Positions 5,547 through 47,723 of a DNA stretch of 64,000 nt are shown here, one piece after another. Source of the DNA: Candidatus Heimdallarchaeota archaeon (GTDB taxonomy: Archaea; Asgardarchaeota; Heimdallarchaeia; Hodarchaeales; Hodarchaeaceae); NCBI GenBank assembly GCA_011364965.1, contig RDOB01000004.1, positions 360,769-424,768 on the forward strand, read 5' to 3'. Below the pieces are notes generated by a model. It worked only from the letters and a program-made list of their open reading frames with translations. It ran no database searches and was not told where the DNA came from. Position numbers and translations under genes: made by a program. Every line of letters starts with the position of its first letter. The stretch's first letter is position 1.

Positions 5547-6311
5547 ATGCTGAGAAGTCCAGAAGAAACTCTTAAGAATTTAACTTTTATAAAAGCATAT
5601 TATGATCTATTATTTTTAGTTGATCGTGGATATCCTCAACAGAGTGCTGTTTCCTTTGTATCTAATCATTATTTATTGAACAAACAAGCTAACCAATTAT
5701 TAAATCGTATTATATTCTCCAAGCACGAAATATCGATAATTTCTGAAAAAACTATTCCAGATATAAAATTACTTGATAGTTGTGATTTACACATTGATGG
5801 ATACAATCAATTTATAACATTTTTTTCTTTAAAAAACCAAGATACAATTATTCTATGTCGTGATGAGATCTTAAGAGACATTTTTTCTTTCTTACATTCA
5901 AAAAAGGATCTATACTTCGATAATTCATATTTAACATCCTTTATTCTCACGTTCAACCAACTTAATTCAGCAAATCTAATCTTTTATCTTGATAAGCAAT
6001 GGAGTCATAGTAAAAAGCATGCAGAGGCAATTAATAGCATTCTTCATAAACACGATATTTCAGGTGAATGTTTAGTTACACAGAATGTGGATAAACGTCT
6101 CAGAGATCAACAATCAGGGGTCGTTGTATCTCACGATCGTGCAGTTTTAATGAGTTCAAATCAACACTTTAGGTATACAAATTGGCTCTACAAAGTTTTC
6201 TTTGAATTGGATTATGAGAAATCTAAATTCATCGATTTTAAGAGTTTTAATTATTCCTACAATCAATCCTCGAAACTTATTAATAGCTATCCTCTTTCCC
6301 TAAAGACTTGA
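5547..6311 (+). CDS. DUF434-family (PIN-like) protein
   Basis: L-x-RGYP...FVSNHYLL, IDGYN, RDI and VD motifs; abuts rdgB. Confidence 0.75.
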   Translation: MLRSPEETLKNLTFIKAYYDLLFLVDRGYPQQSAVSFVSNHYLLNKQANQLLNRIIFSKHEISIISEKTIPDIKLLDSCDLHIDGYNQFITFFSLKNQDTIILCRDEILRDIFSFLHSKKDLYFDNSYLTSFILTFNQLNSANLIFYLDKQWSHSKKHAEAINSILHKHDISGECLVTQNVDKRLRDQQSGVVVSHDRAVLMSSNQHFRYTNWLYKVFFELDYEKSKFIDFKSFNYSYNQSSKLINSYPLSLKT

Positions 6312-6337
6312 TCAGTTGCAAATTTTACAAAACCTAA

Positions 6338-6532
6338 GGGCACGTAGCGAAGCTAGTGGCCTCGCTATAAAGCGAGACCGGACATGTATCGCGCCGGGCT
6401 CCAGAACTCCTGTGAACTTCACTGGGTTTACTGAGACTCATGATGACGTTCTGGAAAAATGAGGAAACTCGGTGTCACCTATGCATTCTGCAAGGTGTCC
6501 GAAAATCGTCGGTTCAAATCCGACCGTGCCCA
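6338..6532 (+). tRNA. tRNA-Trp(CCA) with three introns (D-loop, 37/38, 45/46)
   Basis: Acceptor GGGCACG/CGTGCCC; D-stem GCGA/TCGC; anticodon stem CCGGG/CTCGG with CCA at 6401-6403; T-arm GTCGG-TTCAAAT-CCGAC. Inserts at ~6355-6385, 6405-6466 and 6475-6504. Confidence 0.93.
6405..6466 (+). ncRNA. Intron-encoded box C/D guide RNA in pre-tRNA-Trp
   Basis: D' CTGA 6431-6434, C' ATGATGA 6440-6446, D ATGA 6459-6462; C box degenerate. Guides are complementary to the pre-tRNA, and the +5 rule hits C34 and C39. Confidence 0.85.
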
Positions 6533-6972
6533 CCTCATGATACCATTGAAGGTAATCTTTTGTTACACTTCCGTTGGAGATTGAAGAAGCAAGAATTACC
6601 TTCTAAAATAGCATAATTTTAAATAAAAATTGAGATTACACTTGATTAGAGAATTTAATATAACCTAATTAAAAATCCTAATCAATTGATTTTACTTATA
6701 TGGTCTAATTGGGCTTCTGATAAATTTGGGTTTATTAGAATTTTTTTTGGGATATACAGCACATTCTTCAACAATTCACGCAAATATTCGATTGACACTT
6801 CCCATTAAACAGATAAATATACATCGAAAACTGCCTTAGACAGAAGAAATTACACTCTAACTACTGTTAATTCTCGTTATTGACCCAATGATATGGATTA
6901 CTGATGTTAGAGTTTGTAAAAAGTCTAATTAACTAATGAATAATACTTTAACTAATATGGAAGTGACGATAA

Positions 6973-9362: not shown

Positions 9363-9501
9363 GCCGGGGTAGCCAAGCGGACTGGTTAAAGATCCTTCAT
9401 CTCCTCGTACTACGGCGCTGGCCTTGAGTCAACGTGAATTTATAAATGCAGGTAAGCCAGTGTACTTTTTGTACTCGAGGGTTCAAATCCCTCCCCCGGC
9501 G
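9363..9501 (+). tRNA. tRNA-Ser(TGA) with two introns (D-loop and 37/38)
   Basis: GCCGGGG/CCCCGGC acceptor, G73, long variable arm, anticodon TGA 9425-9427; inserts ~9381-9408 and 9429-9454. Confidence 0.92.
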
Positions 9502-21127: not shown

Positions 21128-21230
21128 GGGCCCATGGCTTAGCCTGGTTAAAGCGCTCGGCTGATAACCGAGATGGCATTCAGAGTGAATGCCAAGGTAG
21201 AGATCCCCGGTTCAAATCCGGGTGGGCCCA
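21128..21230 (+). tRNA. tRNA-Ile(GAT) with a ~28-nt non-canonical intron at the anticodon-stem/variable-loop junction
   Basis: GGGCCCA/TGGGCCC acceptor; CTCGG-CT-GAT-AA-CCGAG; insert ~21173-21200 forming a TGGCATTC/GAATGCCA hairpin. Confidence 0.92.
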
Positions 21231-47617: not shown

Positions 47618-47723
47618 GGCATCATAGCTCAGTTAGGTAGAGCGTCCGGCTGTTACATTCTCTCTTGATTGGGGAGATACTACAGACACCGGGTGGTCGC
47701 AGGTTCAAATCCTGCTGGTGCCG
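47618..47723 (+). tRNA. tRNA-Asn(GTT) with a 32-nt 37/38 intron
   Basis: GGCATCA/TGGTGCC acceptor, G73; GTT 47652-47654; intron 47656-47687. Confidence 0.93.

What the first reader, a model, noticed from the sequence alone, without database searches (positions are those of the whole stretch)
6405..6474. tRNA-Trp intron is a self-targeting box C/D guide for C34 and C39
Seen: guide GTTCTGGA (6448-6455) pairs with TCCAGAAC (6400-6407), and the fifth nt before box D (G6454) pairs with C6401 = C34. Guide CACTGGGTTT (6420-6429) pairs with AAACTCGGTG (6465-6474), and the fifth nt before box D' (G6426) pairs with C6468 = position 39. Known: the euryarchaeal tRNA-Trp intron guides 2'-O-methylation at positions 34 and 39. 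Here it appears in a compact 62-nt form in a probable Asgard genome, which bears on the origin of intron-encoded snoRNAs.
Basis: partly seen in the sequence, partly recalled or inferred. Interest (0 to 1): 0.7.

Follow-up and report, generated by a model that had tools for sequence, protein, structure and literature searches.

The report
Methylation guide inside tRNA-Trp intron
The middle intron of this Asgard (Hodarchaeota-group) archaeon's only tryptophan tRNA gene is a well-conserved box C/D guide RNA aimed at two sugars (C34 and C39) of its own tRNA; this arrangement has been known in other archaea since 2000-2001, so it is a solid new example, not a new kind of system.

Summary
Window 6338-6532 is a tRNA-Trp(CCA) gene with three introns, which ARAGORN and Rfam both miss. 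The canonical 37/38 intron (6405-6466, 62 nt) has the layout of an archaeal box C/D sRNA: box C GUGAACU, 12-nt spacer, D' CUGA, C' AUGAUGA, 12-nt spacer, D AUGA. The fifth base upstream of D pairs with C34 (8 bp). The fifth base upstream of D' pairs with C39 (10 bp). In-register chance is about 4e-4 and 9e-5.

In 17 same-genus genomes this intron is as conserved as the exons (0.93 pairwise identity, against 0.64 and 0.75 for the other two introns), and one guide-target pair changes on both sides. The same design, with guides that track each lineage's anticodon stem, occurs in the sister genus and in Jordarchaeia/Freyarchaeota-labelled genomes. Fibrillarin, Nop5 and L7Ae genes are present. Methylation and expression remain untested.

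This is the known pre-tRNA-Trp guide of Haloferax and Pyrococcus, in a lineage for which the held literature reports none. It is a new member of a known kind. At 62 nt it is near the 65-nt archaeal median. The link to snoRNA origins is speculative.

The scan had already read this stretch in an overlapping window and found free-standing versions in other Asgard genomes; I saw such versions too.

The parts
6338..6532 (+). tRNA-Trp(CCA) gene with three introns. Exons are 6338-6356, 6386-6404, 6467-6474 and 6505-6532. The discriminator is A6532; CC at 6533-6534 is encoded and the final A is not.
   Evidence: Joining the four exons in a script gives a canonical ARAGORN tRNA-Trp cloverleaf (a first approximation). 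ARAGORN and Rfam gathering do not call the uninterrupted sequence. It is the only tRNA-Trp found in the assembly.
6357..6385 (+). Intron 1, 29 nt, in the D-loop between G18 and G19. It contains the hairpin 6361-6366/6371-6376.
   Evidence: These boundaries are the only choice that leaves a normal 9-nt D-loop (AGCUAG|GUA) in all 17 genus members. Five of the 6 hairpin pairs change on both sides. The central BHB helix is weak in this genome (2 of 4 pairs) and 3-4 of 4 in G019 and G001.
6405..6466 (+). Intron 2, 62 nt, at the canonical 37/38 position. This is the box C/D sRNA.
   Evidence: Mean pairwise identity in the genus is 0.93, against 0.64 for intron 1 and 0.745 for intron 3.
6408..6410 (+). 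5' half of the short terminal stem (UCC). It pairs with GGA 6463-6465.
   Evidence: Read directly from the sequence. In the circular-intron fold this stem closes the C/D end.
6412..6418 (+). Box C, GUGAACU (consensus RUGAUGA). G6414 and A6415 are placed for sheared pairs with A6462 and G6461.
   Evidence: RUGAACU is kept in all 17 genus sequences, with only R varying between G and A.
6419..6430 (+). D' spacer and guide, 12 nt. Bases 6420-6429 pair with 6465-6474, and G6426 (the fifth base upstream of D') pairs with C6468 = C39.
   Evidence: The duplex is -12.6 kcal/mol on the pre-tRNA and -11.8 on the spliced arm.
6431..6434 (+). Box D', CUGA (canonical).
   Evidence: Present in all genus members.
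6440..6446 (+). Box C', AUGAUGA (canonical). It is separated from D' by the 5-nt loop GACUC, in a K-loop arrangement.
   Evidence: Invariant in all 17 sequences.
6447..6458 (+). D spacer and guide, 12 nt. Bases 6448-6455 pair with 6400-6407, and G6454 (the fifth base upstream of D) pairs with C6401 = C34.
   Evidence: The duplex is -13.2 kcal/mol on the pre-tRNA and -10.2 on the spliced arm, because three of the eight pairs use the first intron bases.
6459..6462 (+). Box D, AUGA (consensus CUGA). Only the GA is constant across relatives (AUGA, ACGA, CAGA, GUGA, CGGA, CCGA).
6461..6464 (+). GAGG, the intron strand of the central BHB helix of intron 2. It pairs with C32-C35 (6399-6402) with one C34.A mismatch, and it overlaps box D and the terminal stem.
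   Evidence: C:G, U:G, C.A and C:G in all 17 sequences.
6475..6504 (+). Intron 3, 30 nt, in the variable loop (45/46). Its central BHB helix pairs positions 40-43 (6469-6472) with CCGA 6499-6502. An inner hairpin is 6476-6480/6493-6497.
   Evidence: two of the four central-helix pairs and two inner-helix pairs change on both sides. The 5-nt variable loop is restored.

Best explanation
The 62-nt canonical intron of pre-tRNA-Trp is a dual-guide archaeal box C/D sRNA. Inferred steps: L7Ae binds the C/D kink-turn (GA 6414-6415 with GA 6461-6462) and the canonical C'/D' K-loop, and Nop5 and fibrillarin then assemble on them. The 12-nt D spacer pairs with U33-G37 plus the first three intron bases, which places C34 at the fifth pair from box D. 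The 12-nt D' spacer pairs with A38-G45 plus the last intron bases, which places C39 at the fifth pair from box D'. Fibrillarin then 2'-O-methylates both riboses. Box D and the terminal stem also supply one strand of the splice-site helix, so the RNP fold and the bulge-helix-bulge fold exclude each other. The C34 duplex is also stronger on the unspliced RNA. Methylation of C34 is therefore most likely done on a pre-tRNA, in cis or by another copy. After that the RNA refolds, EndA cuts, and the excised intron, probably circularised, can go on acting in trans, at least on C39. Shown here: sequence architecture, register, conservation, covariation and presence of the protein genes. Inferred: RNP assembly, methylation, order of events and circularisation.
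For: Boxes, two 12-nt spacers and N+5 register on C34 and C39 are present. In-register chance is 4.3e-4 and 8.5e-5. Intron 2 is conserved like the exons (0.93) while the two neighbouring introns drift (0.64, 0.745), and C' is invariant. Across 17 genus sequences 95.4% of guide-target cells are paired, against 51.6% at most when the partner is slid; G6424:C41 becomes A:U in two genomes and G.U becomes G:C in one. Across families the D' guide tracks the local anticodon stem with the fifth base always on C39: CACUGGGUUU/AAACUCGGUG, CACUAGGUUU/AAACCUGGUG, AACUGGUGC/GCACCAGUU and CAGGUUU/AAACCUG. The D guide always has its fifth base on C34, and xxGA sits exactly 12 nt after C'. A phylum scan gave 37 of 400 genomes with hits and 0 hits to the reversed control pattern. 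The genome has adjacent Nop5 and fibrillarin genes with open frames, L7Ae, and two EndA paralogues. In the same order and class the same pair of guides also exists as a free-standing sRNA, which shows that the guide module, not just intron folding, is what is kept. The mechanism is established for the H. volcanii and Pyrococcus pre-tRNA-Trp introns (PMC4090602, PMC7994747).
Against: No RNA or modification data exist for this organism, and no RNA run holding the locus could be used. Box C (GUGAACU) and box D (AUGA) depart from consensus, the C/D stem II would have A-U and C.A in place of U.U and G-C, and the terminal stem is only 2-3 bp. L7Ae binding is therefore assumed. Within the genus nearly all guide-target pairs are invariant, so covariation there rests on one pair; the cross-family support is by inspection of hand-parsed sequences. 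Rfam gives only insignificant sRNA-like hits.
Confidence: 0.8

Rival explanations
1. The complementarities are only structural. They would help the long intron fold or present the splice sites, and the box-like motifs would bind no RNP and guide no methylation.
For: Box C and box D are non-consensus. The GAGG of box D and the terminal stem also serves as the BHB helix strand. The minimum-free-energy fold of the naked pre-tRNA does not use the guide-target pairs.
Against: A structural role does not explain the invariant canonical C'/D' pair, the two spacers of exactly 12 nt, the fixed fifth-base register on the two positions known to be methylated elsewhere, or the retention of the same two guides in free-standing sRNAs outside any intron.
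Confidence: 0.07
2. The RNP's main role is as a chaperone or timer for a three-intron precursor. By holding the 3' strand of the anticodon stem (6465-6474) and the anticodon loop, it would decide when the competing helices for intron 2 and intron 3 can form. Methylation would be secondary or absent.
For: The stretch 6468-6474 has three mutually exclusive partners: the anticodon-stem 5' strand, the D' guide and CCGA of intron 3. The box D fold and the BHB fold exclude each other.
Against: The same guides occur in lineages whose tRNA-Trp has a different intron set, and as free-standing genes. In H. volcanii the homologous intron is dispensable and its documented activity is methylation (PMC4090602). 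No data address the order of splicing here.
Confidence: 0.08
3. The excised intron is a trans-acting sRNA whose real targets are other RNAs (rRNA or other tRNAs), and the match to tRNA-Trp is incidental.
For: A random 12-mer finds a run of 8 or more pairs somewhere in the pre-tRNA in 18% of trials if no register is required. Archaeal sRNAs can have several targets (PMC7994747).
Against: Both guides hit the host tRNA in the exact N+5 register, at the two positions known from Haloferax. The D' guide co-varies with the host anticodon stem across families. I did not search rRNA for further matches.
Confidence: 0.03
4. The gene is a decaying pseudogene, and the intron is a relic that no longer functions.
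For: Gene finders miss it. It has three introns with relaxed splice motifs.
Against: It is the only tRNA-Trp in the assembly. It is present in 19 of 21 same-genus genomes with exon identity of 0.94-0.97 and compensatory changes in stems.
Confidence: 0.02

Closest known systems
Box C/D guide in the intron of Haloferax volcanii pre-tRNA-Trp (Omer 2000; Clouet d'Orval 2001; Singh 2004, as summarised in PMC4090602 and PMC3326292)
   Same: It sits in the canonical 37/38 intron of tRNA-Trp(CCA) as a dual guide aimed at positions 34 and 39 of the host tRNA. The excised intron is a candidate stable circle. I recall, but could not check in the held papers, that the D guide serves C34 and the D' guide serves position 39 there too.
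   Different: The Haloferax intron is 105 nt, and this one is 62 nt. Position 39 is U in Haloferax (Um39) and C here. Here boxes C and D are non-consensus and box D doubles as the BHB helix strand. Here the host gene carries two more introns. Methylation is demonstrated there and only predicted here.
Pyrococcus sR50 (the pre-tRNA-Trp intron; PMC7994747)
   Same: It is a compact intron-borne box C/D sRNA that targets the wobble base of its own tRNA. In vitro RNP assembly on the pre-tRNA has been reported (Bortolin 2003, cited in PMC7994747).
   Different: It comes from a euryarchaeal thermophile. I could not compare sequences directly because the primary papers are not held. Rfam sRNA models give only insignificant hits here.
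Sulfolobus solfataricus tRNA-Trp intron (65 nt, stable circle; PMC3326292)
   Same: Similar length, with two short complementarities to positions 34 and 39 of the host tRNA.
   Different: [quoted passage not shown] Here C'/D' are canonical and C/D keep the GA pairs.
Free-standing tRNA-Trp C34/C39 guide sRNAs of other Heimdall-group Asgard archaea
   Same: They carry the same two guides, the same N+5 register and 12-nt spacers. In G023 the 24 bases TGATGACGTTCTGGAAAAATGAGG are identical to the window.
   Different: They lie outside the tRNA, have a long terminal stem (G023) or fully canonical boxes (family f5), and the tRNA-Trp intron of G023 has no boxes.
Eukaryotic intron-encoded box C/D snoRNAs
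   Same: A guide RNA is released from an intron of a host transcript, and the RNP proteins are homologous.
   Different: The eukaryotic hosts are spliceosomal introns of Pol II transcripts, release is by debranching and exonuclease trimming, and the targets are other RNAs. Here the intron is a BHB intron cut by EndA and the target is the host RNA itself. No evidence found here links the two historically.

Membership tests
Archaeal box C/D sRNA | Terminal box C (RUGAUGA) and box D (CUGA) able to form a kink-turn with tandem sheared G.A pairs | tested here: inconclusive
   Box C is GUGAACU (RUGA kept) and box D is AUGA (GA kept). The geometry fits on paper: a 3-bp stem UCC/GGA, the 3-nt bulge UGU, then G6414.A6462 and A6415.G6461. 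The GA of box D is constant in all relatives. Protein binding was not tested.
Archaeal box C/D sRNA | Internal D' and C' boxes forming a K-loop | tested here: met
   CUGA 6431-6434 and AUGAUGA 6440-6446 are joined by a 5-nt loop. C' is invariant in 17 genomes.
Archaeal box C/D sRNA | Guide spacers of about 12 nt between C and D' and between C' and D | tested here: met
   Both spacers are exactly 12 nt, here and in the f2, f13 and f14 relatives.
Archaeal box C/D sRNA | Antisense element of at least about 7-8 bp, with the target nucleotide paired to the fifth base upstream of D or D' | tested here: met
   There are 8 bp on C34 and 10 bp on C39, both in register.
Archaeal box C/D sRNA | Genome encodes L7Ae, Nop5 and fibrillarin | tested here: met
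   PF01269 scores 269 bits and PF01798 scores 218 bits in adjacent open frames on C13. PF01248 scores 91 bits on C12.
Archaeal box C/D sRNA | The RNA accumulates, and the target is 2'-O-methylated in a guide-dependent way | not testable with these tools
   No RNA run holds the locus. A single contig from a run labelled metatranscriptomic cannot be interpreted.
Intron-encoded pre-tRNA-Trp guide (Haloferax / Pyrococcus sR50 type) | Located in the canonical 37/38 intron of tRNA-Trp(CCA) | tested here: met
   The intron 6405-6466 lies between G37 and A38. The spliced product is called tRNA-Trp(cca) by ARAGORN.
Intron-encoded pre-tRNA-Trp guide (Haloferax / Pyrococcus sR50 type) | The two guides aim at positions 34 and 39 of the host tRNA | tested here: met
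   Position 39 is C here and U in Haloferax.
Intron-encoded pre-tRNA-Trp guide (Haloferax / Pyrococcus sR50 type) | Splice sites lie in a bulge-helix-bulge motif recognised by EndA | tested here: inconclusive
   The 3-nt bulges AG|A and AA|A flank a 4-position helix with 3 pairs and a conserved C34.A mismatch. The Jordarchaeia-labelled relatives (f13) have a perfect CUCC/GGAG helix. [quoted passage not shown] I did not determine the subunit type.
Intron-encoded pre-tRNA-Trp guide (Haloferax / Pyrococcus sR50 type) | Common descent with the euryarchaeal introns | not tested
   I made no sequence comparison with Haloferax or Pyrococcus introns. The guides are constrained by the target, so similarity would not prove descent.

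The most novel reading that the evidence does not exclude
In Heimdall-group Asgard archaea the tRNA-Trp C34/C39 guide is a portable module that has moved between the tRNA's own intron (this genus, G022) and a free-standing gene (G023, family f5). In the triple-intron precursor its RNP would also set the order in which three mutually exclusive helices around the anticodon arm form, so it would couple methylation to ordered splicing. If so, the closest archaeal relatives of eukaryotes would show both the intron-hosted and the independent state of one guide RNA.
Probability: 0.15. Interest if true: 0.6.

Novelty: new member of a known kind. Interest (0 to 1): 0.4.

Why it matters
It extends a classic archaeal oddity, a tRNA intron that guides modification of its own tRNA, to the Hodarchaeota group, which recent phylogenies place closest to eukaryotes (Eme et al. 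2023, as cited in 10.64898/2026.10.13.758758). No paper in the held library reports it for Asgard archaea. It gives one of the many Asgard tRNA introns a concrete job, and so a reason for selection to keep it. It also shows that standard tRNA finders miss this essential gene altogether. Together with the free-standing versions in sister lineages, it offers a natural series for asking how a guide RNA enters or leaves an intron. It does not by itself bear on the origin of eukaryotic intron-hosted snoRNAs.

Tried and rejected
1. My first intron boundaries (6360-6386 and 6475-6503) gave an 11-nt D-loop and a 6-nt variable loop. I replaced them after comparing 17 relatives.
2. A strict BHB scan ranked a 6371-6393 intron highest for intron 1. 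I rejected it because it would leave five bases between the D stem and the anticodon stem.
3. Rfam at E up to 10 on 6250-6620 gave only insignificant hits: sR3 at 11 bits, SNORD100 at 14.7 bits, and a tRNA T-arm only.
4. RNA evidence: no RNA holder is listed for the locus. The one run labelled metatranscriptomic (X20) holds a single 156-nt contig on 6387-6530 with introns 2 and 3 unspliced. The tool itself rates this run 'probably DNA', and its start is one base off the intron-1 splice site. I draw nothing from it.
5. The primary papers PMC92551 and PMC275556 are not held, so box sequences of the Haloferax and Pyrococcus introns could not be compared.
6. Relaxing the phylum pattern by dropping D' added no further families. 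The many families without a hit (including f20 with 135 genomes and f3 with 31) are 'not found with these patterns', not 'absent'. Some carry free-standing guides.
Only its archaeal rows were used. Two of them (the Pacearchaeota and Methanobrevibacter rows) and one 'uncultured archaeon' row are chance matches in coding sequence.
8. Hits L031, L040 and L048 are chance matches inside coding regions.
9. The f30 (G310) and f32 (G397) loci have the C' box and C34 guide, but the C/D boxes are displaced or absent and the architecture is unclear. I left them unresolved.

Full report
**The gene**

The stretch 6312-6972 is intergenic. ARAGORN and Rfam's gathering search list other tRNAs in the window but nothing here. 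By eye, 6338-6344 (GGGCACG) pairs with 6525-6531 (CGTGCCC). A T arm lies at 6508-6524, and CTCCAGA at 6399-6405 holds a CCA anticodon.

Removing three inserts gives a sequence that ARAGORN calls tRNA-Trp(cca). I refined the boundaries on 17 same-genus sequences:
- Intron 1 is 6357-6385 (29 nt), in the D-loop between G18 and G19.
- Intron 2 is 6405-6466 (62 nt), at the canonical 37/38 position.
- Intron 3 is 6475-6504 (30 nt), at 45/46.

With these boundaries the product is a textbook 74-nt cloverleaf plus an encoded CC. No other tRNA-Trp gene was found in the 87%-complete assembly.

**The observation**

Every coordinate in the finding is correct. Intron 2 reads:
- leader AAC
- terminal-stem half UCC (6408-6410), then U6411
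- box C GUGAACU (6412-6418)
- 12-nt spacer UCACUGGGUUUA (6419-6430)
- box D' CUGA (6431-6434)
- loop GACUC
- box C' AUGAUGA (6440-6446)
- 12-nt spacer CGUUCUGGAAAA (6447-6458)
- box D AUGA (6459-6462)
- terminal-stem half GGA (6463-6465), then A6466

The fifth base upstream of box D (G6454) pairs with C6401 = C34 inside an 8-bp duplex. The fifth base upstream of D' (G6426) pairs with C6468 = C39 inside a 10-bp duplex. Random spacers of intron composition reach these runs in the required register with P = 4.3e-4 and 8.5e-5. Predicted duplex energies are -13.2 and -12.6 kcal/mol on the pre-tRNA. On the spliced arm they are -10.2 and -11.8 kcal/mol, so the C34 guide prefers the unspliced RNA.

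**Organism**

I checked this indirectly. The genomes grouped in the same genus include contigs whose NCBI titles read 'Candidatus Hodarchaeota archaeon' (isolates YT1_021, YT2_065, YT5_056, WORE3). One is titled Thorarchaeota and one Promethearchaeota. Hodarchaeota sits in the Asgard kingdom Promethearchaeati.

**Conservation**

The gene is found in 19 of 21 same-genus genomes at 80-89% identity. In the alignment, intron 2 has a mean pairwise identity of 0.93, like the exons (0.94-0.97). Introns 1 and 3 have 0.64 and 0.745. C' is invariant, and box C keeps RUGAACU.

Of the guide-target cells, 95.4% are paired, against at most 51.6% when the partner is slid by one to three columns. G6424:C41 becomes A:U in two genomes, together with the matching change at position 29 of the anticodon stem. 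One G.U becomes G:C. Variation within the genus is small, so this is modest covariation.

The comparison between families is stronger. A strict pattern (anticodon loop, D', C', C34 guide) hit 37 of 400 genomes of the phylum and gave no hits to the reversed control. The hits by family were:

| Family | Genomes with a hit | Identity from NCBI titles |
|---|---|---|
| f1 | 19 of 21 | window's own genus, Hodarchaeota |
| f2 | 1 of 2 | same order as the window |
| f13 | 5 of 5 | Jordarchaeia |
| f14 | 6 of 6 | Jordarchaeia, Jordarchaeum and Freyarchaeota |

In each of these families the D guide puts its fifth base on C34, with xxGA exactly 12 nt after C'. The D' guide is rewritten to match the local anticodon stem, with its fifth base still on C39. 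The guide/target pairs are CACUGGGUUU/AAACUCGGUG, CACUAGGUUU/AAACCUGGUG, AACUGGUGC/GCACCAGUU and CAGGUUU/AAACCUG.

**Machinery**

The genome has adjacent Nop5 and fibrillarin genes, an L7Ae gene, and two EndA paralogues. [quoted passage not shown] Two paralogues would fit the heteromeric type, but I did not test this.

**Mechanism**

The anatomy is that of a dual-guide archaeal box C/D sRNA, and the targets are the two positions methylated through the homologous intron of H. volcanii (Cm34, Um39; PMC4090602, PMC7994747, PMC3326292). I therefore read it as a guide for Cm34 and Cm39 of tRNA-Trp.

One local feature matters. The intron strand of the splice-site helix is GAGG 6461-6464, which is the GA of box D plus the terminal stem. 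It pairs with C32-C35 with a conserved C34.A mismatch. The kink-turn fold and the bulge-helix-bulge fold therefore cannot coexist. Three of the eight C34 pairs also use intron bases.

The likely order is RNP assembly and C34 methylation on a precursor, then refolding, cleavage and ligation. The excised intron then remains able to act in trans. When circularised it keeps the UCC/GGA stem. Work on Haloferax likewise found trans action and a stable circular intron (PMC4090602, PMC3326292). All of these steps are inferred here. No RNA data could be used.

**Departures from the textbook family**

Box C (GUGAACU) and box D (AUGA, and NNGA across relatives) keep only the residues that make the sheared G.A pairs, and the terminal stem is 2-3 bp. 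This weakens the membership claim for the terminal kink-turn until L7Ae binding is tested. It does not weaken the claim about how the RNA works.

**How new it is**

The arrangement has been known since 2000-2001 in Euryarchaeota. A degenerate version was suggested for Sulfolobus (PMC3326292). The median archaeal tRNA-Trp intron is 65 nt because of this nested sRNA (PMC4090602), so 62 nt is not exceptional. It is, however, the shortest of the Asgard versions I saw, because box D doubles as the splice-helix strand. The f2, f13 and f14 relatives have 10-27 further bases between box D and C39.

I found no paper in the held library that reports the guide for Asgard archaea. The Asgard tRNA-intron census preprint (10.64898/2026.10.13.758758) and the Atabeyarchaeia/Freyarchaeia paper (PMC11291895) do not mention tRNA-Trp or box C/D. 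Verdict: a new member of a known kind.

**Context that adds some interest**

In the same order, genome G023 has a tRNA-Trp with a 46-nt intron that has no boxes. About 47 nt downstream it has a free-standing box C/D sRNA (L021:1190-1301) with the same two guides. This sRNA has a 10-bp terminal stem and about 44 nt inserted between D' and C'.

In family f5 of the same class, three genomes have free-standing dual guides with fully canonical boxes, and no tRNA-Trp gene within about 330 nt upstream. Earlier notes of this scan describe such free-standing guides in other Heimdall-group genomes, and my observations agree with them.

The guide module has therefore sat both inside and outside the intron within one class. 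This is the only part of the finding that touches the snoRNA-origin question, and it does so only by analogy.

Noticed in passing
window 6468-6474, with 6394-6398, 6420-6429 and 6499-6502: The 3' strand of the anticodon stem has three mutually exclusive partners: the stem's 5' strand, the D' guide, and CCGA of intron 3 (the central BHB helix of intron 3). Two of the four intron-3 helix pairs change on both sides in relatives. This implies an ordered maturation pathway for the triple-intron precursor.
   Followed up: partly
L021:1024-1143 and L021:1190-1301 (G023, same order): The tRNA-Trp has a 46-nt intron without boxes. About 47 nt downstream lies a free-standing box C/D sRNA: C AUGAGCA, 12-nt spacer, D' CUGA, about 44 nt of U-rich insert, C' GUGAUGA, 12-nt spacer identical to the window's, D AUGA, and a 10-bp terminal stem with an AA bulge. 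Its guides fit C34 and C39 of that tRNA.
   Followed up: partly
L187, L188 and L189 (G079, G081, G082; family f5, same class): Free-standing sRNAs with fully canonical boxes, for example AUGAUGU-12 nt-CUGA-5 nt-UGAUGA-12 nt-CUGA. The D guide puts its fifth base on C34 (xAAUCUGGAGCx). The D' guide looks aimed at a tRNA-Trp anticodon stem. No tRNA-Trp gene lies within about 330 nt upstream.
   Followed up: partly
L060 and L065 (G118-G121, Jordarchaeia-labelled, family f14): The intron keeps the C34 guide, but the D' spacer is shortened and no longer complementary to the anticodon stem. The C39 guide seems to have been lost in part of this family.
   Followed up: no
L096, L119 and L124 (Thermoproteota and Crenarchaeota-labelled MAGs): Single-intron tRNA-Trp genes whose introns carry GAUGAUGA, a 12-nt C34 guide and GAGA in register, but no recognisable D' box or C39 guide. 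This is a half-guide version outside the Asgard group.
   Followed up: no
L184 (G310, f30) and L185 (G397, f32): tRNA-Trp introns with C' and the C34 guide, but with displaced or missing box C/D. In G397 there is an extra CCTTGC copy complementary to the anticodon-stem 5' strand. The architecture is not resolved.
   Followed up: partly
G001:C16:10631-10755 (L027) and G001:C16:33075-33140 (L030): One same-genus genome has, besides the full gene, a second copy of the part from intron 2 onward 22 kb away, and a copy of the first 63 bases about 200 nt from the full gene. These may be duplicated fragments or split pieces.
   Followed up: no
window 21128-21230 and 47618-47723: Rfam finds two more interrupted tRNA genes that ARAGORN misses. 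One has a 29-nt insert in the variable region and one has a 33-nt anticodon-loop intron. Earlier notes also list a double-intron tRNA-Ser at 9363-9501.
   Followed up: no
window 6387-6530: A run labelled metatranscriptomic (X20) holds only one 156-nt contig from the 1.1-kb stretch. It covers 6387-6530 without differences, with introns 2 and 3 unspliced and 6 unaligned letters at each end. It could be a precursor fragment or DNA carry-over.
   Followed up: partly
G000:C13:74167-74421 and G000:C13:105545-105805: There are two tRNA-splicing-endonuclease paralogues (open frames of 192 and 221 aa). This would fit a heteromeric enzyme with broad specificity and match the many non-canonical introns. 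The subunit type was not determined.
   Followed up: no
L028 (G022:C300:3081-3100): A second 20-base exact copy of TGATGACGTTCTGGAAAAAT lies outside the tRNA-Trp gene and is not followed by xxGA in register. It may be a remnant or chance.
   Followed up: no
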